Part shown: piece by piece, positions 30,718 through 35,712 of the stretch | How positions within the stretch are numbered: position 1 is the stretch's first letter | Layout of the letters: each line of letters begins with the position of its first letter | Virus record (IMG/VR): IMGVR_UViG_3300045988_082386 | Strand: one strand, 5' to 3' | Source of the DNA: a virus | DNA length: 35,813 nt | Position numbers and translations under genes: made by a program | The notes under the pieces: model-generated | What the model was told of the DNA's origin: nothing | Database searches by the model: none | Seen by the model: only the letters and a program-made list of their open reading frames with translations

Positions 30718-31029
30718 CTATTCCTCCATCAAAATCTCGTCCACTGCTCCACACAGTAGGCTTGTTGCTAACACCATTCCTGCTGAATACAACAGCTTCA
30801 TTGGAATACTGTCAACACAAATCCAATTGTTGTACCACATTACAATTACAACAACGATACCAATTATCAGATTCTTGTATCTGTTTGCAACTCTGTACTT
30901 TTCCTGTAAAACGTGGTAATCTTTAGGTGTATTGTTTTTGTGAGAGCTTGAATGTAGTGGTGTATATTCAGGCTCTTCTTTTTTGGTTTCTTTTACTTCT
31001 CTTACTTCAAGTCTTGTGTCTTGTTCCAT
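30718..31029 (-). CDS. Small membrane protein (2 predicted TM helices)
   Basis: The hydrophobic stretches are LIIGIVVVIVMWY and LLYSAGMVLATSLLCGAV. SD AAGGAG is present. Confidence 0.6.
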   Translation of the reverse strand: MEQDTRLEVREVKETKKEEPEYTPLHSSSHKNNTPKDYHVLQEKYRVANRYKNLIIGIVVVIVMWYNNWICVDSIPMKLLYSAGMVLATSLLCGAVDEILMEE

Positions 31030-31039
31030 CTTTTGCTCC

Positions 31040-31312
31040 TTATAATTCCATACATATTATTTCCATTAGGTCATCTAACAAATTACGTTCTTCTTCTGAA
31101 ATTTTTTCATTAATTTTTTTATCTTCGCTTTCTATTTGTTCTTCGCTTTTCATAGCAATTTCAATTAATCCCTTAAAAAGCCTATTTCCTAATTTTTCCC
31201 CATGTTCTTCAATCAGATTTTCTTTTGCAGCTTTTAAAACCATTCCTGTTTCTGTAAATAATAAAAACATTGGTCCTTTCATTTCTACACTGCATCCCTT
31301 TGCAACTATCAT
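31040..31312 (-). CDS. Hypothetical early protein
   Basis: ATGA overlap with the upstream gene; SD GGAGGAGC. Confidence 0.55.
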   Translation of the reverse strand: MIVAKGCSVEMKGPMFLLFTETGMVLKAAKENLIEEHGEKLGNRLFKGLIEIAMKSEEQIESEDKKINEKISEEERNLLDDLMEIICMEL

Positions 31313-31509
31313 TTTGCTCCTCCAATCTTTCCAACCATATCAGTTATTTTTTCATTCGACCAACTTCTTGGTTCAGTCAATCTTGGACAATGTGTGTCCA
31401 TAATGTCCTCTTCTTTTCCCAAAGGACAGTTCCTGCAACTACCTGAATACTTCCTGCATATATCACGCAAATCCCGGTAGCTGTTAATTGCTCCAATCAA
31501 TTTAATCAC
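31309..31509 (-). CDS. Small Cys-rich hypothetical protein (possible Zn-binding)
   Basis: C..C spacing is visible in CRKYSGSCRNCPLG....HCP. The start is either GTG 31509 or TTG 31500 (SD GGGAG). Confidence 0.5.
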   Translation of the reverse strand: MIKLIGAINSYRDLRDICRKYSGSCRNCPLGKEEDIMDTHCPRLTEPRSWSNEKITDMVGKIGGAK

Positions 31510-31515
31510 TCCCTT

Positions 31516-31689
31516 CTATGAATAAAATCTTTCATTAAAATATTTAGTTGGAACCTTGCCTGACATTGTAATGTAGCCTTTCTCTTTCAATTCTGCATTC
31601 ATCTGCTTAATTATCTTGTATGCAAATGAAAGACTACACTCCATTGTTTGAGCAATATCCTTTGCTCCCATAAATTGCTTCTCAGGCAT
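31516..31689 (-). CDS. Excisionase-like / MerR-type HTH DNA-binding protein
   Basis: FMGAKDIAQTMECSLSFAYKIIKQMN...GKVPTKYFNERF matches the HTH_17/Xis pattern. The start is set to ATG 31689 (SD AGGAGG, 8-nt spacing). Confidence 0.6.
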   Translation of the reverse strand: MPEKQFMGAKDIAQTMECSLSFAYKIIKQMNAELKEKGYITMSGKVPTKYFNERFYS

Positions 31690-31701
31690 ATCTATCACCT
31701 C

Positions 31702-31923
31702 CTATTTCTCATTGCTTGAATTATTTTCACGTTCGATATTGAAAAAAATTTCATCAACCTTTACCCCAAATAAATTTGCTAATTTTACAGCATTTCGTAT
31801 CTTAACCATACCAAAGTCTGCTTCCCAAGCATTATAAGTTTGTGTTGAAACTCCCAGCTTTTTAGCAGTTTCTGACTGATTCAATCCTTTTCTAGCACGT
31901 AGTTCTTTTAGTGAATACCTCAT
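31702..31923 (-). CDS. XRE-family HTH regulator (second early HTH)
   Basis: LKELRARKGLNQSETAKKLGVSTQTYNAWE is an HTH_3 motif. The start is set to ATG 31923 (SD AAAGGAAG). Confidence 0.7.
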   Translation of the reverse strand: MRYSLKELRARKGLNQSETAKKLGVSTQTYNAWEADFGMVKIRNAVKLANLFGVKVDEIFFNIERENNSSNEK

Positions 31924-31981
31924 TAATTCTTCCTTTCTTGTGTCTTTTTGAAACACTTTTTTCTTCATTCATTTTGAAAAC

Positions 31982-32010
31982 TTGAATTTTTATTTAGAAA
32001 ATGTTAAAAT
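31982..32010 (+). promoter_or_regulatory. Plus-strand sigma-A-type promoter facing into the ORF-free region
   Basis: TTGAAT (31982-31987), a 17-nt spacer, then TGtTAAAAT (hexamer 32005-32010). Confidence 0.5.
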
Positions 32011-32016
32011 TTTCTT

Positions 32017-32399
32017 ACCCTGACTTGGGCAAGAAAGGAGTTGATCTTTTGACCAAACTTTTGTTTTTGCCCTGTTCTCTTAATTTGAGGTTGCAATAAT
32101 GGTTAGCCAAAGCATTTAAAACTGGCGTAAAATGTAGTAATTAGTACGGCGTTACTACTCAGGTGCTAGAGTATAATACACAGAGACGGCACTCGTAAAA
32201 TGCTTCACCGTACTTAATGCTCCTCTTAATCCGTCAACTAATGGGCTATTATATTTTTGCGCAGAACTAAAACTGCATAAGTGACGGAGTCCTTGATAGA
32301 AGCATTTAGCTCCATTAGATGTGGTGAAAACCTGCAAAGTACATAGGGTTAAAAAATTTAGCATTTAACTGTTAGGAATGGAGCTCCTAACAGTTTTTT
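32017..32399 (+). ncRNA. Candidate structured/antisense RNA of unknown class (about 380 nt)
   Basis: The region is bracketed by the plus-strand promoter and a plus-strand-specific terminator. It has no credible ORF and contains several 7-9-bp perfect complementary segments, some nested. It is visibly less AT-rich than its surroundings. Confidence 0.4.
32368..32399 (+). terminator. Intrinsic terminator (plus strand), overlapping 3' end of convergent cro-like gene
   Basis: ACTGTTAGGA-atggagc-TCCTAACAGT forms a perfect 10-bp stem followed by TTTTT. On the minus strand no T-tract follows. Confidence 0.75.
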
Positions 32400-32608
32400 G
32401 TTTGTTTTGGTAAACGTGGCTTAAGAAAAAAATCTGTATTTACATTCAATACACCACAAATTATTGAATATTCTTCAAATGTAATTCTTCTTTTTCCATT
32501 AAGTGCTAAATTTAGTTTTGGAAGTTCTATACCTGTTTGCCTACTAACAAATGCTTGTGTAATTCCTTTTTCTTCTAAGTAACTTTTTATTTTTATTCCT
32601 ACTTCCAA
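32387..32608 (-). CDS. Cro-like XRE-family HTH regulator
   Basis: KSYLEEKGITQAFVSRQTGIELPKLNLALNG is an HTH_3 motif. The start is TTG with SD GGAGGA 8 nt upstream. The gene is divergent from the repressor gene. Confidence 0.75.
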   Translation of the reverse strand: MEVGIKIKSYLEEKGITQAFVSRQTGIELPKLNLALNGKRRITFEEYSIICGVLNVNTDFFLKPRLPKQTKNC

Positions 32609-32631
32609 TTACAATATCCTCCTTTCTTATT

Positions 32632-32706
32632 TCGATATTTTCGAAACTAACTGTATAATACACCGATATTTTCGAACTGTCAATATATTTTTTCGATATT
32701 TTCGAA
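32632..32706. promoter_or_regulatory. Operator array: three copies of CGATATTTTCGAA in the switch region
   Basis: Exact 13-mers start at 32633, 32664 and 32694, spaced 31 and 30 bp apart. Related half-sites are aatcgaaat (32721-32729) and tttcgatta (32742-32750). Confidence 0.65.
32655..32683 (-). promoter_or_regulatory. Early lytic promoter (PR-like)
   Basis: On the minus strand: TTGACA (32678-32683), a 17-nt spacer, then TATTAT (32655-32660). The spacer contains operator copy 2. Confidence 0.65.
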
Positions 32707-32713
32707 TTTTTTA

Positions 32714-32742
32714 TTTACATAATCGAAATAGAGTGTTATACT
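32714..32742 (+). promoter_or_regulatory. Repressor-gene promoter (PRM-like)
   Basis: TTTACA (32714-32719), a 17-nt spacer, then TGtTATACT (hexamer 32737-32742). Confidence 0.55.
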
Positions 32743-32770
32743 TTCGATTAACAGATAGGAGGTGTATAAT

Positions 32771-33223
32771 ATGACTTTTGGAAAAAGATTAAGAGAATCT
32801 AGAAAAGCTAAAAGCTATACTCAAAAGGATTTAGCTAACCTGATTGGAGCGAAACATAACTCCATAAGTGATTGGGAAAATGATAAAAATAAACCAGATC
32901 CTGACACTATCGAACTTTTATGTGGTGTTCTTGATATAACCCCAAATTATTTACTTAATTCAAACACTGATGATTTCTCACCATTAGAAACTGAAATCAT
33001 AAAAAAATACCGTACACTTGACGAACACAGTAAAGAACTTATTTTAACCATCCTCAATAAGGAATATGAACATATGCTTGGTAAAAACGGTACATCAAAT
33101 ACTGCTTTTGCTTCATTAAAACATAATAATTTGCTTAATGCAGCACATCAAAGAACAGATATTGATATTCCAGAAGGAATTGATACATCAGAAAACGACA
33201 TTATGGACGACGAAAACTTCTAG
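32771..33223 (+). CDS. cI/ImmR-like phage repressor (XRE HTH, no S24 peptidase domain)
   Basis: FGKRLRESRKAKSYTQKDLANLIGAKHNSISDWENDKNKP is an HTH_3 motif. The start is set to ATG 32771 (SD AGGAGG, 8-nt spacing). An ImmA-like gene follows. Confidence 0.85.
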   Translation: MTFGKRLRESRKAKSYTQKDLANLIGAKHNSISDWENDKNKPDPDTIELLCGVLDITPNYLLNSNTDDFSPLETEIIKKYRTLDEHSKELILTILNKEYEHMLGKNGTSNTAFASLKHNNLLNAAHQRTDIDIPEGIDTSENDIMDDENF

Positions 33224-33248
33224 TCCAAAAACGAAAGAGGGTTAAAGG

Positions 33249-33713
33249 ATGACATATGAAGAATTATTAATCGAAAGTGATAACCTAGGACTAATCGTGA
33301 AAGAAAAGCCTTTGGAATATCACGACGGAAGGATTAAGGGGAATCGTGTAGCAATTAGAAGCACAATTCCTACAAACACACAAAAAGCGTGTGTATTAGC
33401 TGAAGAAATAGCACATCACATCACTTCCACTGGTGATATATTAGATATGAGTAATATTTCAAACAGAAAACAAGAATATAAGGCAAGAATTTGGAGTTAC
33501 AATAAATTGATAGATTTACAAGGTTTTATTAATGCTTTCGAACACCATTGTACTAACTTATACGAAACAGCAACTTTTCTTGGTGTTACAGAGCAGTTTC
33601 TTGCAGACACAATAAATGCTTATATGCATAAATATGGATGCTACATAAGGTACAAGAATTATGTTATTGAATTTGGATTTAATTCAGTAAATGTAATAAT
33701 GCAATACAATTAA
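33249..33713 (+). CDS. ImmA/IrrE-like (DUF955/M78) putative anti-repressor metalloprotease, EExxH variant
   Basis: YEELLIESDNLGLIVKEKPL...CVLAEEIAHHITS...NRKQEYKARIWSY matches the short ImmA family. The usual HExxH reads EEIAH here. Confidence 0.65.
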   Translation: MTYEELLIESDNLGLIVKEKPLEYHDGRIKGNRVAIRSTIPTNTQKACVLAEEIAHHITSTGDILDMSNISNRKQEYKARIWSYNKLIDLQGFINAFEHHCTNLYETATFLGVTEQFLADTINAYMHKYGCYIRYKNYVIEFGFNSVNVIMQYN

Positions 33714-34656: not shown

Positions 34657-35712
34657 ATGGCTGTTTTTAAAGATGAAACTAGAAATACTTATTATGTAAA
34701 CTTATATTACACAGATTATACAGGACAAAAAAAGCAAAAAAGAAAGCGTGGATTTAAACTAAAAAAAGATGCTATAAATTGGGAACGTGAGTTTTTACTG
34801 CAAATGCAAGGAGAACCTGATATGACCTTAAACTCTCTCGCTCAATTATATCTTATGGATATAAAAACAAGATTAAAAGAAGTAACTTATGATGGTCATA
34901 AACATTTATTAAACAATAGAATACTTCCATATCTGGGCAATAAACCAATTAATTTAATAACTCCTGCTGATATAAGGGTATGGCAAAATAAACAGATTTC
35001 CCAAGGATATTCGGATGCATACCTTAAACGTATGAACAACCTACTTGTTGCTACTTTAAACTTTGCTGTGAAATTCTATAATTTAAAAGAAAATCCATGT
35101 CATTTAGCTGGAACTATGGGAAAACGAAAGCGAAGTAAAATAACATTCTGGACCAAAGAAGAATATTTTAAATTCATTGCTTTAGTTGATGATATTACAA
35201 AGTATACAATGTTTCAAACTCTTTACTATACCGGTATTAGAATTGGAGAATTATTAGCTTTGACATACAATGATATCGATCTAGATAATGGAATCATTAG
35301 AATAAACAAAACCGTCAATTTTAAAGGTGGAAAGGTTATCTTCACTTCTCCTAAAACACCAAAAAGTAATAGGGAAATAACAATTCCACAATTACTAGTT
35401 AAAGATTTAAGTAATTATATTAAGAAAATTTATAGCTATAAAATGACCGACCGTGTCTTTCCATATACAAAAGCTATTCTTTATAAGGAACTCAAAAAGA
35501 AAAGTGAACAGGCTGGACTAAAAAAGATACGAATACATGATTTTAGACATTCACATGCAAGTTTATTAATTGATATGGGTATTAACCCATTACTTATTTC
35601 TGAAAGATTAGGGCATGAACGGGTTGAAACTACTCTTAATATCTACAGTCATTTATACCCTTCTAGATCAGATGAATTAGCCGAAAAACTAGATAAAATA
35701 ATGTCATATTAA
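34657..35712 (+). CDS. int: Tyrosine integrase (phage integrase family)
   Basis: An N-terminal arm-binding/SAM-like region is present, with catalytic motifs TGIRIGELLAL...HDFRHSHASLL...LGHERVETTLNIYSHLY. SD AAAGGAG is present. Confidence 0.95.
   Translation: MAVFKDETRNTYYVNLYYTDYTGQKKQKRKRGFKLKKDAINWEREFLLQMQGEPDMTLNSLAQLYLMDIKTRLKEVTYDGHKHLLNNRILPYLGNKPINLITPADIRVWQNKQISQGYSDAYLKRMNNLLVATLNFAVKFYNLKENPCHLAGTMGKRKRSKITFWTKEEYFKFIALVDDITKYTMFQTLYYTGIRIGELLALTYNDIDLDNGIIRINKTVNFKGGKVIFTSPKTPKSNREITIPQLLVKDLSNYIKKIYSYKMTDRVFPYTKAILYKELKKKSEQAGLKKIRIHDFRHSHASLLIDMGINPLLISERLGHERVETTLNIYSHLYPSRSDELAEKLDKIMSY

What the first reader, a model, noticed from the sequence alone, without database searches (positions are those of the whole stretch)
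31982..32399. Promoter-to-terminator bracketed, ORF-free, highly self-complementary element on the lysogeny strand inside the early lytic leader
Genes elsewhere in this genome are packed with 0-30 nt gaps, yet 31969-32386 (about 420 bp, between the cro-like gene and the next early HTH gene) has no credible ORF. The only ORF-track hit, 32155..32364 (-), has no SD and an atypical composition.

The plus strand, which is the orientation of the repressor and integrase, carries two signals:
- TTGAAT-17 nt-TGtTAAAAT at 31982-32010.
- A plus-strand-only intrinsic terminator at 32368-32399, whose hairpin overlaps the stop of the convergent cro-like gene.

Between these signals I can read perfect complementary segments:
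- 32198-32206 AAATGCTTC pairs with 32299-32307 GAAGCATTT.
- That helix encloses 32230-32236 TCCGTCA with 32282-32288 TGACGGA.
- That in turn encloses 32261-32264 GCAG with 32273-32276 CTGC.
- 32134-32140 GTAGTAA pairs with 32152-32158 TTACTAC.
- 32143-32149 AGTACGG pairs with 32208-32214 CCGTACT.
- 32238-32244 CTAATGG pairs with 32312-32318 CCATTAG. This helix crosses the others, so it is either a pseudoknot or an alternative fold.

AGCATTTA occurs three times (32111, 32301, 32360). An 11-nt copy of the PR -10 region (GTATAATACAC, 32171-32181 versus 32653-32663) lies on the opposite strand, so convergent transcription is possible.

My inference is a structured RNA of about 380 nt made in lysogens. 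It would be antisense to the leader that the PR transcript must cross to reach the downstream early genes (second HTH regulator, xis, recombination and replication). It could be a lysis-lysogeny regulator or an RNA of an unrecognised class. I cannot match it to any RNA family from memory.
Basis: partly seen in the sequence, partly recalled or inferred. Interest (0 to 1): 0.72.

Follow-up and report, generated by a model that had tools for sequence, protein, structure and literature searches.

The report
Full-length FuFi-1 phage RNA unit
The gene-free gap after the phage's cro-like gene encodes a member of FuFi-1, a known structured RNA family of unknown function; here and in about 200 related phages the RNA is roughly twice as long as the database model, carries a tiny conserved reading frame, and is transcribed head-on against the lytic promoter.

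Summary
The element is real, but it is not an unrecognised RNA class. Window 32230-32399 (+) is a full-length match to Rfam RF02986, FuFi-1 (139 bits, threshold 59.6). FuFi-1 is an orphan structured RNA of Firmicutes and Fusobacteria phages (Weinberg 2017).

The 31982-32010 promoter, a 5' hairpin, a Shine-Dalgarno site and a short reading frame (32049-32099, MTKLLFLPCSLNLRLQ) are conserved upstream of FuFi-1 in about 200 phage or prophage loci. Two covarying long-range helices (32077-80/32345-48 and 32087-90/32222-25) join this 5' part to the Rfam domain.

So "ORF-free" is wrong.

Context is conserved too. The unit sits next to Cro/cI-type regulators. In 99 of 127 units a near-consensus promoter downstream points back through it, as PR does here.

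Function is still unknown. My best guess is a constitutively made prophage RNA that gates early lytic transcription beyond cro, with translation of the short frame coupled to folding. The element is a new member of a known family, and the family's boundaries appear to be underestimated.

The parts
31982..32010 (+). Promoter of the unit. The -35 is TTGAAT (31982-87), the extended-10 TG is at 32002-03, and the -10 is TAAAAT (32005-10). The inferred transcription start is about 32017.
   Evidence: 9/12 matches plus TG. The position and hexamers are conserved in the alignment of homologous loci. Of unique units, 83 of 141 match at 10/12 or better and 100 of 144 have the TG. No copy of the window's operator TTCGATATTTTCGAA lies here. 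The start site is inferred from the -10 position.
32018..32029 (+). 5'-terminal hairpin CCC-UGACUU-GGG.
   Evidence: Paired in 82.9% of cells in alignment A4, against 28-45% when the partner is slid. Compensatory changes are few (GCC/GGC versus CCC/GGG). The hairpin is conserved but only weakly covarying.
32034..32040 (+). Shine-Dalgarno sequence AAAGGAG, 8 nt upstream of the TTG start codon.
   Evidence: Nearly invariant across about 170 unique 5' domains. It is also predicted to pair with 32058-62 in helix H1, mostly through G-U pairs.
32049..32099 (+). Short ORF: TTG start, 16 codons, TAA stop, peptide MTKLLFLPCSLNLRLQ. The family consensus is M-T-K-L-L-x-L-P-(V/A/C), with a variable tail.
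   Evidence: The start-codon column reads TTG 104, ATG 36, GTG 11, CTG 1, ACG 4 and TTA 8. All 8 TTA cases have an in-frame ATG or GTG one codon upstream. The Pro codon uses all four third bases. Leu-Leu is written as CTT TTG, CTT TTA or TTA CTT. The length variants I inspected between the start and the Pro codon, taking the nearest in-frame ATG or GTG as the start, are multiples of 3 (-3, +3, +3, +12). Translation itself is inferred.
32077..32080 (+). 5' arm (CUCU, ORF codons 10-11) of a long-range helix to 32345-32348.
   Evidence: 95% of cells paired, 3 of 4 pairs with compensatory change. The alignment-free check over 120 unique units of all size classes found CCCTT/AGGG, CCTTA/TAAGG, CTCTT/AGAG, CCAGA/TCTGG, CCTGT/ACAGG, CTTTT/AAAAG, CCCGG/CCGGG and others.
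32345..32348 (+). 3' arm (AGGG of the conserved AUAGGGU, unpaired in the Rfam model) of the long-range helix to 32077-32080.
32087..32090 (+). 5' arm (GAGG) of the helix that closes the variable mid-domain. It pairs with 32222-32225.
   Evidence: 96.4% of cells paired, 3 of 4 pairs compensatory (AU 14, GC 10, UG 3, CG 2 at the outer pair).
32100..32221 (+). Variable mid-domain, an expansion segment absent or shorter in other size classes. It contains hairpin 32098-101/32113-16 and helix 32143-51/32206-14, and probably hairpins around 32156-32173 and 32186-32204.
   Evidence: The start of the 5' domain lies 56-297 nt upstream of the start of the 3' domain (and 490 nt in one locus), with modes near 83, 147 and 210 nt. 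Helix 32143-51/32206-14 is paired in 96% of cells with 6 compensatory pairs. The two inner hairpins were judged by eye and not tested formally.
32222..32225 (+). 3' arm (CCUC) of the helix that closes the mid-domain, just 5' of FuFi-1 P1.
32230..32399 (+). FuFi-1 RNA domain as defined by Rfam RF02986. It comprises P1 32230-36/32282-88, the invariant GCAG-AACUAAAA-CUGC hairpin, helices 32289-93/32338-42, 32302-08/32316-22 and 32323-25/32330-32, and the terminator.
   Evidence: 139.3 bits against a gathering score of 59.6, E about 1e-30, model positions 1-175 of 175. The helices covary in A4.
32367..32399 (+). Intrinsic terminator: an 11-bp stem, a 7-nt loop and UUUUUUG. Its 3' arm overlaps the stop codon of the convergent cro-like gene.
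   Evidence: the only terminator-like site in 31000-33500, on the + strand. All 11 pairs are compensatory in A4.
32387..32608 (-). Context: convergent cro-like HTH gene (73 aa).
   Evidence: Pfam HTH_26 and HTH_3. A small convergent Cro/C1-type HTH gene is the first downstream neighbour in 59 of the 101 loci with enough flank for two downstream neighbours (37 of them followed by a cI-like gene, 22 by another minus-strand gene).
32655..32683 (-). Context: PR-type lytic promoter TTGACA-17-TATTAT. It points back through cro and the FuFi-1 unit and is flanked by three operator copies at 32631, 32662 and 32692.
   Evidence: (11/12 matches). An equivalent promoter at 10/12 or better lies on the minus strand within 700 nt downstream in 99 of 127 units, against 5 of 112 in the upstream control.
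31702..31968 (-). Context: the next early gene on the PR transcript (88-aa HTH protein). Its start codon is 14 nt from the -35 of the FuFi-1 promoter.
   Evidence: Pfam HTH_3, E = 8e-15.
32762..33223 (+). Context: cI-like repressor on the same strand as the RNA, followed by an ImmA/IrrE-type M78 peptidase (33249-33713) and the integrase (34657-35712).

Best explanation
**What it is (shown)**
- Window 31982-32399 (+) is a self-contained transcription unit for a full-length FuFi-1 RNA (Rfam RF02986).
- An extended-10 promoter at 31982-32010 starts an RNA of about 383 nt near 32017. An intrinsic terminator at 32367-32399 ends it.
- The Rfam model covers only the 3' 170 nt.
- The conserved 5' part has a terminal hairpin, a Shine-Dalgarno site and a 16-codon ORF at 32049-32099.
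- A variable mid-domain is closed by helix 32087-90/32222-25.
- The ORF's codons 10-11 (32077-80) pair with the conserved AGGG (32345-48) just upstream of the terminator. The RNA is therefore one compact fold.
- The unit lies on the lysogeny strand, between the cro-like gene and the next early gene. It is head-on to PR, so every PR transcript must be made across it in antisense.

**How it most likely works (inferred)**
- No copy of the window's operator motif lies at the promoter, so the RNA is probably made constitutively in the lysogen.
- I think the most likely role, at about 35-40%, is gating of early lytic expression beyond cro.
- One proposed route is convergent-promoter interference. 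The unit's promoter sits 14 nt from the start of the next early gene.
- A second proposed route is formation of a roughly 380-bp duplex with the PR leader.
- Ribosomes on the short ORF would compete with the two long-range helices. Translation would then decide which fold, and which stability or activity, the RNA adopts.
- A second, trans-acting activity of the ornate 3' domain, such as binding a protein, is likely. Simple antisense action would not need such a conserved structure.

The confidence value refers to identity and architecture, not to mechanism.
For: **Identity**
- 139.3 bits, full model length.
- 8 of 8 further loci are also FuFi-1 above the gathering score.

**5' extension**
- Conservation profile.
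- 138 of 152 loci with the 3' domain have the 5' domain upstream on the same strand. Most of the remainder are cut by contig ends.
- The reverse search with a 5'-domain pattern recovers FuFi-1 again.

**Single fold**
- RNAalifold and pair counts on 35 sequences that are less than 93% identical give 94.1% of cells paired, against 79.9% in shuffles and 39-45% when partners are slid.
- 53 of 68 pairs show compensatory change.
- The long-range helix has at least 9 different compensatory variants across all size classes.

**Strand**
- G-U 255 against A-C 37, plus the promoter and the terminator.

**Short ORF**
- Start-codon statistics, rescue of TTA by an upstream ATG or GTG, synonymous Pro and Leu codons, and in-frame indels.

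**Context**
- Neighbouring Cro/C1 HTH proteins and cI-like repressors with or without an S24 peptidase domain.
- A convergent strong promoter in 99 of 127 units, against 5 of 112 in the control.
- L045 has a 12/12 minus-strand promoter between the FuFi-1 terminator and cI.
- No operator lies at the unit's promoter.
Against: - Nothing here shows expression, translation or any phenotype.
- The single-sequence MFE is only marginally better than shuffles (z = -1.8).
- Helix H1 around the Shine-Dalgarno site and start codon, and the 5' hairpin, are conserved but barely covary.
- Four related loci have ACG and one has CTG at the start position. The peptide tail is not conserved and changes frame through a 1-nt indel in some lineages, including the window. 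Part of the apparent coding signal could therefore be an RNA-level constraint.
- Context is not uniform. In 22 loci both downstream neighbours are on the minus strand, and in 28 of 127 units no strong convergent promoter was found.
- A simple antisense or interference role does not explain the sequence and structure conservation across two phyla.
- Weinberg et al. found no self-cleavage and could not assign a function.
Confidence: 0.85

Rival explanations
1. It is a leader or attenuator for the repressor operon, analogous to lambda PRE. Transcription from 31982-32010 normally stops at the 32367-32399 terminator. Under some condition sensed through the short ORF or the fold, it reads through, runs antisense across cro and continues into the cI-like gene at 32762.
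For: - The RNA is co-oriented with a cI-like HTH repressor lying within about 0.2-0.7 kb downstream in most loci.
- In 37 loci a convergent cro-like gene lies between them. Among the 37 loci whose first two downstream genes are co-directional, an HTH repressor directly follows in some, for example L045.
- The layout of leader peptide, structured RNA and terminator resembles classical attenuators. The short ORF is Leu-rich.
- The promoter's position downstream of cro and pointing towards cI mirrors lambda PRE (established knowledge of lambda).
Against: - The terminator is long, fully covarying and followed by a U-tract in essentially all members.
- I found no segment that covaries with a terminator arm in the way an antiterminator would. 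The purine-rich top of the 5' arm does not track the variants of the 32077-80 segment.
- cI-like genes have their own promoter downstream of the terminator. Examples are L045 8565-8593 and window 32714-32742.
- 22 loci have no co-directional gene downstream.
- Weinberg et al. report that the motif is only rarely in potential 5' UTRs.
Confidence: 0.12
2. It is a trans-acting prophage "moron" RNA unrelated to the phage's own switch. It would be a stable structured RNA, possibly also encoding a peptide, made from the prophage to act on a host or competitor target, for example superinfection exclusion, defence or counter-defence, or host physiology. Its place in the immunity region would only reflect where lysogen-expressed cargo is tolerated.
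For: - It has its own strong promoter and its own terminator, the classic moron layout.
- The sequence and fold are highly conserved while the flanking genes differ.
- The family spans Lachnospiraceae, Oscillospiraceae, Peptostreptococcaceae and Fusobacterium.
- Conserved single-stranded stretches such as AUAGAA, CCUGCAAAG and AAACAAAUUU could contact a partner.
- Inverted repeats flank the unit in some lineages, which hints at modular acquisition.
Against: - The position is not random. It is nearly always beside Cro/cI-type regulators and in the path of a convergent strong promoter, in 99 of 127 units against 5 of 112 in the control.
- No target or partner can be named from the sequence.
Confidence: 0.25
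3. It is a type I toxin-antitoxin-like module. The RNA would be a highly structured toxin mRNA whose 5'-3' long-range pairing and sequestered Shine-Dalgarno site keep the short ORF silent. The antisense PR leader, or another antisense RNA, would act as antitoxin.
For: - A short ORF with a strong Shine-Dalgarno site whose start codon sits in a hairpin (32042-46/32051-55).
- 5'-3' long-distance pairing, its own promoter and terminator, a prophage location, and antisense transcription across it.
- These features recall the hok, aapA1 and fst mRNAs (my own knowledge of those systems).
Against: - The peptide is 12-24 aa. Only its first 9 or so residues are conserved, it has a central Pro, and it has no membrane-spanning hydrophobic stretch.
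- No dedicated antisense promoter is conserved inside the unit. The TATAAT at 32172-77 is not conserved.
- The most conserved part of the RNA is the non-coding 3' domain.
Confidence: 0.05
4. It is not a functional RNA. It would be a decayed protein gene, for example an antirepressor, or a spacer whose signals are chance matches.
For: - Related phages carry Rha or Ant genes after cro. RG-TP1 is an example.
- Promoter-like hexamers are common in AT-rich DNA: 18 found against 10 expected in 31000-33500.
Against: - A full-length Rfam hit at E about 1e-30.
- 53 compensatory pairs.
- More than 200 homologous units with a conserved promoter and terminator.
- The 69-aa minus-strand ORF is not conserved.
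Confidence: 0.01

Closest known systems
FuFi-1 RNA motif (Rfam RF02986; Weinberg et al. 2017, NAR 45:10811, PMC5737381)
   Same: - Window 32230-32399 matches the whole 175-position model at 139 bits.
- It has the same P1 helix, the same invariant GCAGAAC-AAAAC-UGC hairpin, the same internal helices and the same 3' intrinsic terminator.
- It has the same habitat: phages and prophages of Firmicutes and Fusobacteria, next to XRE-type HTH genes.
   Different: - The published model stops at P1.
- Here and in about 200 homologues the transcription unit extends 90-300 nt further 5'. The extension has a conserved promoter, a 5' hairpin, a Shine-Dalgarno site with a short ORF, and an optional mid-domain.
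- The "unpaired" AUAGGGU of the model pairs with the 5' extension.
- I could not read the paper's supplement, so I cannot say whether its authors noticed any of this.
Lambda OOP RNA and P22 sar RNA (phage cis-antisense RNAs in the immunity region)
   Same: - Each is a small RNA with its own constitutive promoter and terminator.
- Each is transcribed against the early lytic transcript just downstream of a cro- or arc-type regulator gene.
- As with OOP, the 3' end overlaps the 3' end of the upstream lytic gene. Here 13 nt overlap cro.
   Different: - OOP (77 nt) and sar (about 69 nt) are short and simple. They act by pairing with the coding or RBS region of cII or ant.
- This RNA is about 383 nt, ornate and conserved across phyla, and it carries a short ORF.
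- Apart from cro's last codons it overlaps only an untranslated spacer, not the RBS of the next gene (start codon at 31968, RNA start at about 32017).
- There is no sequence relationship.
Convergent lytic/lysogenic promoter pairs (coliphage 186 pR/pL; lambda PR/PRE)
   Same: A lysogeny-strand promoter faces a strong lytic promoter, so that elongating polymerases from one must cross the other. This arrangement is conserved in 78% of units.
   Different: - In 186 and lambda the lysogenic promoter drives the repressor gene.
- Here its transcript is terminated after 383 nt, before cro and cI.
- The product itself is a conserved structured RNA.
Dual-function RNAs (S. aureus RNAIII/hld, B. subtilis SR1/SR1P)
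   Same: A structured regulatory RNA of a few hundred nucleotides that also contains a short translated ORF.
   Different: - There is no homology.
- The ORF here is much shorter (12-24 codons).
- It overlaps the arms of long-range helices, which suggests that translation and folding compete.
- Neither activity has been shown.

Membership tests
FuFi-1 RNA (Rfam RF02986) | Covariance-model score at or above the curated gathering score (59.6 bits) over the full model. | tested here: met
   139.3 bits, model positions 1-175 of 175, E = 9.7e-31.
FuFi-1 RNA (Rfam RF02986) | P1 helix enclosing the invariant GCAGAAC-AAAAC-UGC hairpin, followed by a multi-helix domain. | tested here: met
   32230-36/32282-88 and 32261-64/32273-76 are paired in 97% and 99% of cells in 35 homologues. 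Helices 32289-93/32338-42 and 32302-08/32316-22 covary.
FuFi-1 RNA (Rfam RF02986) | Rho-independent terminator at the 3' end of the motif. | tested here: met
   32367-32395 plus a U-run. All 11 pairs are compensatory.
FuFi-1 RNA (Rfam RF02986) | Found in Firmicutes or Fusobacteria phages and prophages, near XRE-type genes. | tested here: met
   The window is a prophage-like genome with an integrase, cI-like and cro-like HTH genes and an ImmA-type peptidase. Homologues come from IMG/VR contigs and from Lachnospiraceae, Oscillospiraceae and Fusobacterium genomes.
Cis-antisense phage regulators of the OOP or sar type | Own promoter and terminator, transcribed convergently to the early lytic transcript. 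| tested here: met
Cis-antisense phage regulators of the OOP or sar type | The RNA overlaps the RBS or a substantial coding part of the regulated gene. | tested here: not met
   The RNA (about 32017-32399) overlaps only the last 13 nt of cro (32387-32399). It does not reach the RBS or start of the next gene (31968).
Leader-peptide transcription attenuator | Short leader ORF upstream of an intrinsic terminator. | tested here: met
   ORF at 32049-32099, terminator at 32367-32399.
Leader-peptide transcription attenuator | Mutually exclusive antiterminator and terminator pairings, and a co-directional regulated gene immediately downstream. | tested here: inconclusive
   No segment was found that covaries with a terminator arm. 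In the window the next gene is convergent (cro) and cI follows 360 nt later with its own promoter. In some loci a cI-like gene follows directly.
Type I toxin-antitoxin toxin mRNA | ORF encoding a small hydrophobic, membrane-active peptide (typically 19-60 aa). | tested here: not met
   12-24 aa, with a conserved N-terminal MTKLLxLP(V/A) only, a central Pro and a variable tail.
Type I toxin-antitoxin toxin mRNA | Dedicated antisense antitoxin RNA with its own conserved promoter. | tested here: not met
   Only the PR-type promoter reads antisense. The internal TATAAT-like 11-mer is not conserved in homologues.
Prophage moron | An autonomous promoter-terminator unit inserted between phage genes and expressed from the prophage. 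| not testable with these tools
   The promoter and terminator layout is met. Expression in the lysogen cannot be tested here.

The most novel reading that the evidence does not exclude
FuFi-1 as catalogued is only the 3' domain of a 250-490-nt dual-function RNA that is a core, previously unrecognised component of the genetic switch of many Clostridia and Fusobacteria temperate phages. It would be fired from a constitutive promoter head-on against PR. Its short ORF (MTKLLxLP...) overlaps the arms of two long-range helices, so ribosome traffic would decide whether the 5' and 3' domains lock together. The phage's lysis-lysogeny decision, or maintenance of lysogeny, would thereby be coupled to the host's translational state.
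Probability: 0.25. Interest if true: 0.8.

Novelty: new member of a known kind. Interest (0 to 1): 0.55.

Why it matters
- FuFi-1 is one of a handful of widespread bacterial RNA motifs flagged in 2017 as likely to have a "sophisticated biochemical function". The only paper in the searched library that mentions it assigns no function.
- This analysis places a member in a readable genetic context: between cro and the early genes, on the repressor strand, facing PR.
- It also shows that the real unit has a conserved promoter, a probable translated mini-ORF, and 5'-3' long-range pairing that the Rfam model misses.
- That gives experimenters the correct construct boundaries. Earlier in vitro tests presumably used the 175-nt domain only.
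- It also gives concrete mutations to make: the start codon, 32077-80/32345-48, and the promoter.
- The hosts (Blautia, Mediterraneibacter and other Lachnospiraceae) are dominant human-gut bacteria whose prophage switches are poorly understood.
- If the RNA turns out to be only an accessory, the result is still a corrected family definition.

Tried and rejected
1. **Decayed protein gene.** Rejected. There is a full Rfam hit and strong covariation, and the 69-aa minus-strand ORF is not conserved.
2. **tRNA or tmRNA.** None found in the window.
3. **Other Rfam families for the 5' half.** Only chance-level hits: rli52 at E = 6 and CRISPR-DR at E = 2.5-4.5.
4. **Close relatives among deposited phages.** One weak hit to the cro/cI segment only (RG-TP1, 68% identity). 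It carries Rha and Ant genes where the window has FuFi-1.
5. **Local hairpin CUC...GAG right after the ORF (my first reading).** Replaced by the two long-range helices. These covary, while the local register is inconsistent between sequences.
6. **Shine-Dalgarno site pairing with the CUCCU before P1.** Not favoured. CUCCU covaries with 32087-90 instead.
7. **Antiterminator search.** No segment covaries with the terminator arms.
8. **Repressor operator at the unit's promoter.** None found.
9. **Flanking inverted repeats as a general feature.** Present at 13 nt or more in about 31 of 189 units from several lineages, but absent in the window (9 nt, chance level).
10. **Unanchored codon statistics.** My loose regular expression picked wrong start codons and the result was discarded. 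The anchored table is used instead.
11. **Single-sequence folding to choose the strand.** Uninformative: z = -1.8 against -2.8. The G-U against A-C count settled the strand.
12. **Supplement of Weinberg 2017.** Not held.
Full report
**1. What is at the coordinates**

The window is a temperate-phage genome. Lytic genes run on the minus strand. The plus strand carries a cI-like HTH repressor (32762-33223), an ImmA/IrrE-type M78 peptidase (33249-33713) and a tyrosine integrase (34657-35712).

A cro-like 73-aa HTH gene (32608-32387, minus) is driven by a near-consensus promoter, TTGACA-17-TATTAT, at 32683-32655. Three copies of the palindrome TTCGATATTTTCGAA lie around it. The next early gene, an 88-aa HTH protein, starts at 31968. 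The 418-bp gap between the two genes is the finding.

The scan confirms the + strand promoter-like site at 31982-32010 (TTGAAT-17-TAAAAT, preceded by TG). It also finds a single + strand intrinsic terminator at 32367-32395.

**2. Identity**

cmscan against Rfam 15 finds exactly one family above threshold in the whole window. It is RF02986, FuFi-1 RNA, at 32230-32399 (+): 139.3 bits against a gathering score of 59.6, E about 1e-30, covering all 175 model positions including the terminator.

Weinberg et al. [quoted passage not shown] They thought the properties of these motifs suggest a sophisticated biochemical function. FuFi-1 is rarely in 5' UTRs, showed no self-cleavage, and has no known function. 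No other paper in the searched library mentions it.

**3. The unit is bigger than the Rfam model**

One of them (L033) is identical to the window over this region.

In an alignment of 80 unique 521-nt segments, conservation does not stop at the model's first position. Two upstream stretches are as conserved as the Rfam domain: the -35 and extended -10 at 31982-32010, and 32031-32080. The flanks outside 31982-32399 are not conserved.

I built profile HMMs of the 5' part and the 3' part.
- 138 of 152 loci that have the 3' domain also have the 5' domain upstream on the same strand. Most exceptions are cut by contig ends.
- The reverse experiment scanned IMG/VR with a 5'-domain pattern. It gave 98 new loci, of which 64 have the 3' domain by nhmmer.
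- The other 34 carry GC-rich 3' domains with insertions. The five of these I ran through cmscan are all full-length FuFi-1 above the gathering score.

In this data set the two parts always travel together.
- The start of the 5' domain lies 56-297 nt upstream of the start of the 3' domain, with one locus at 490 nt and modes near 83, 147 and 210 nt. This reflects an optional mid-domain.
- The whole units, from the 5' domain to the terminator, measure about 240-490 nt.
- The window belongs to the long class (389 nt from 32012 to 32400).

Genome hits place the family in Blautia, Mediterraneibacter, Eisenbergiella and other Lachnospiraceae, in Oscillospiraceae/Acutalibacteraceae and Peptostreptococcaceae, and in Fusobacterium. 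About 17 chance hits in unrelated phyla are expected for a pattern of this size.

**4. One fold**

I aligned 35 full-length long-class units that are less than 93% identical to one another (alignment A4).

The RNAalifold consensus has 68 pairs.
- 94.1% of cells are paired, against 79.9 ± 0.4% in column shuffles and 39-45% when partners are slid by 1-3 columns.
- 53 pairs show compensatory change.

Besides the Rfam helices, the consensus contains the following, in window coordinates.
- A hairpin around the ribosome-binding site: 32036-40/32058-62 plus 32042-46/32051-55. It is conserved, rich in G-U pairs, and has little covariation.
- A long-range helix, 32077-80/32345-48.
- A helix, 32087-90/32222-25, that closes the variable mid-domain.
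- A hairpin, 32098-101/32113-16.
- A helix, 32143-51/32206-14.

The long-range helix joins the 5' extension to the conserved AUAGGGU that is unpaired in the Rfam model. An alignment-free tabulation over 120 unique units of all size classes shows it changing in concert:

| 5' segment | 3' segment | Units |
|---|---|---|
| CCCTT | AGGG | 20 |
| CCTTA | TAAGG | 13 |
| CTCTT | AGAG | 9 |
| CCAGA | TCTGG | 7 |
| CCCAT | TGGG | 5 |
| CCTGT | ACAGG | 5 |
| CTTTT | AAAAG | 5 |
| CCCGG | CCGGG | 2 |
| CCCGA | TCGGG | 2 |

Further variants occur once each.

G-U pairs outnumber A-C pairs 255 to 37 in the consensus pairs, so the + strand is the strand under structural selection. Single-sequence MFE z-scores (-1.8 for +, -2.8 for -) are not informative.

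**5.

| Helix | Cells paired | Verdict |
|---|---|---|
| 32230-36/32282-88 | 96.7%, 7 of 7 pairs compensatory | supported |
| 32143-49/32208-14 | 95.5%, 6 of 7 pairs compensatory | supported |
| 32261-64/32273-76 | 98.6%, invariant | supported |
| 32198-206/32299-307 | 61.5% | not supported; its 3' arm belongs to covarying hairpin 32302-08/32316-22 |
| 32238-44/32312-18 | 46.5% | not supported |
| 32134-40/32152-58 | 52.7% | not supported; it would form a pseudoknot with 32143-49/32208-14, and the alignment is poor there |

AGCATTTA three times is chance: 5 copies in the window against 3.8 expected. The 11-mer shared with the PR -10 region is a real exact repeat (0.04 expected). Both copies are on the + strand. 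Homologues have (U)AUAAAAC at that position, so it is not a conserved internal promoter.

**6. A short ORF**

Eight nucleotides after AAAGGAG (32034-40) lies TTG (32049). It opens 16 codons that end at TAA (32097-99) and encode MTKLLFLPCSLNLRLQ.

Across 164 unique 5' domains the start-codon column reads as follows:

| Codon | Count |
|---|---|
| TTG | 104 |
| ATG | 36 |
| GTG | 11 |
| TTA | 8 |
| ACG | 4 |
| CTG | 1 |

- Every TTA case has an in-frame ATG or GTG one codon upstream.
- The consensus peptide is M-T-K-L-L-x-L-P-(V/A/C).
- The Pro codon uses all four third bases.
- Leu-Leu is written as CTT TTG, CTT TTA or TTA CTT.
- Replacements are conservative.
- The length variants I inspected between the start and the Pro codon, taking the nearest in-frame ATG or GTG as the start, are multiples of three (-3, +3, +3, +12).
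- From codon 9 or 10 onwards the peptide is not conserved, and the nucleotides there are the covarying helix arms.

I read this as a genuinely translated mini-ORF, at about 70-75% probability. Its 3' half doubles as the arms of helices 32077-80/32345-48 and 32087-90/32222-25. A translating ribosome would then be incompatible with both long-range helices. The ACG and CTG exceptions, and the frame-shifting 1-nt indel after the Pro codon in some lineages including the window, are the main caveats.

**7. Context**

I oriented all loci on the RNA. The counts cover the 101 loci with enough flank for two downstream neighbours.

| First two downstream neighbours (strand relative to the RNA) | Loci |
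|---|---|
| Small convergent Cro/C1-type HTH gene, then a co-directional cI-like repressor (HTH with or without an S24 peptidase domain) | 37 |
| Two co-directional genes; for those tested, often the repressor itself | 37 |
| Two minus-strand genes, often two small HTH genes | 22 |
| Co-directional gene, then a minus-strand gene | 5 |

The upstream neighbour is usually a minus-strand early gene, for example an ORF6N-type antirepressor in L004 and L010.

A promoter matching the consensus at 10/12 or better lies on the minus strand within 700 nt downstream of the terminator in 99 of 127 unique units. The figure is 5 of 112 in the 700 nt upstream.

In L045 the RNA lies directly between a cro-like gene and the cI-like gene. 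There a 12/12 minus-strand promoter sits between the FuFi-1 terminator and cI. The lytic transcript must therefore cross the whole unit in antisense before its first gene.

The unit's own promoter has no copy of the window's operator, which suggests constitutive expression.

**8. Mechanism**

The following are shown:
- family identity
- unit boundaries
- the fold
- the folded strand
- conserved translation signals
- the conserved head-on arrangement with a lytic-type promoter

The following are inferred.
- The RNA is made in the lysogen.
- Its promoter, 14 nt from the start of the next early gene, and PR interfere with each other.
- The RNA and the PR leader can form a duplex of about 380 bp.
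- Translation of the mini-ORF competes with the closure of the 5' and 3' domains.

I rate the candidate roles as follows.

| Role | Probability |
|---|---|
| Gating of early lytic expression or maintenance of lysogeny | about 35-40% |
| Trans-acting "moron" function unrelated to the switch | about 25% |
| PRE-like conditional leader for cI | about 12% |
| Type I toxin-antitoxin-like module | about 5% |
| Something else | the remainder |

Antisense control of translation in the manner of OOP or sar is unlikely. The RNA overlaps only cro's last 13 nt and no ribosome-binding site.

**9. Novelty and score**

The element is a new member of a known, functionally orphan family.

The possibly new findings are the extended architecture and the conserved switch-region geometry.
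- The architecture comprises the promoter, the mini-ORF, the mid-domain and the 5'-3' helices.
- I could not check the 2017 supplement, so I cannot say whether any of this was already noted there.

These findings make an open question, what FuFi-1 does, more directly testable. Interest: 0.55.

Noticed in passing
L205, L178/L220/L106 group, L007/L072/L102, L123, L184/L216, L086 (locus coordinates); not in the window: In about 31 of 189 unique units, an exact inverted repeat of 13-18 nt brackets the whole FuFi-1 unit. One copy covers or adjoins the -35 and the other lies right after the terminator. Examples are CATTGACTGCGGCGGGGA, CATTGACAGCGGTAAAA (about 26 nt with one mismatch by eye) and TACATCCCTTATGTAAG. 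The repeat sequences differ between lineages. They could be operator pairs, a long-range stem in the antisense lytic transcript, or traces of modular mobility.
   Followed up: partly
window 32171-32181 and 32653-32663 (+): The exact 11-nt direct repeat GTATAATACAC is shared by the FuFi-1 mid-domain and the PR -10 region (0.04 expected by chance). Homologues have (U)AUAAAAC at the first site. The meaning is unexplained.
   Followed up: partly
window 32631-32645, 32662-32676, 32692-32706: Three copies of the 15-bp palindrome TTCGATATTTTCGAA (the middle one with 2 mismatches), spaced about 30 bp apart between cro and the cI-like gene. They are presumably the operators of the switch. No copy with fewer than 2 mismatches occurs elsewhere in the window.
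   Followed up: partly
L175, L178, L182, L193, L205 and relatives (for example L175:2201-2424): These are GC-rich FuFi-1 variants with 50-100-nt insertions inside the 3' domain. They score only 61-98 bits with the Rfam model and are missed by a sequence-only HMM, but they keep the same 5' domain and short ORF.
   Followed up: partly
L200, L234, L239, L248 (start-codon position of the short ORF); L220: Four related loci have ACG instead of ATG at the short ORF's start. L220 carries an in-frame 12-nt duplication (GACCAAACTTTT twice) within the short ORF.
   Followed up: no
L082:9879-9947 (-) and L082:1046-1117 (-): A type II hammerhead ribozyme (Rfam RF02276, 44 bits) and a tRNA lie on the same viral contig as a FuFi-1 unit.
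   Followed up: no
window 32367-32399, read on the minus strand: On the minus strand the terminator hairpin is followed by UUAAAUGCUAAAUUUUUU. In the family the same position reads UGCCAAAUUUGUUUAC, which is a moderately U-rich tail. The hairpin might act as a weak tR1-like pause or terminator for PR transcripts just after cro. The scan did not call it.
   Followed up: no
window 32762-33713 (+): The repressor module is of the ImmR/ImmA type: an XRE HTH protein followed by an M78 IrrE-like peptidase. It is not LexA-like cI with an S24 peptidase domain. Other FuFi-1 phages use S24-type repressors, so the RNA is not tied to one induction mechanism.
   Followed up: partly
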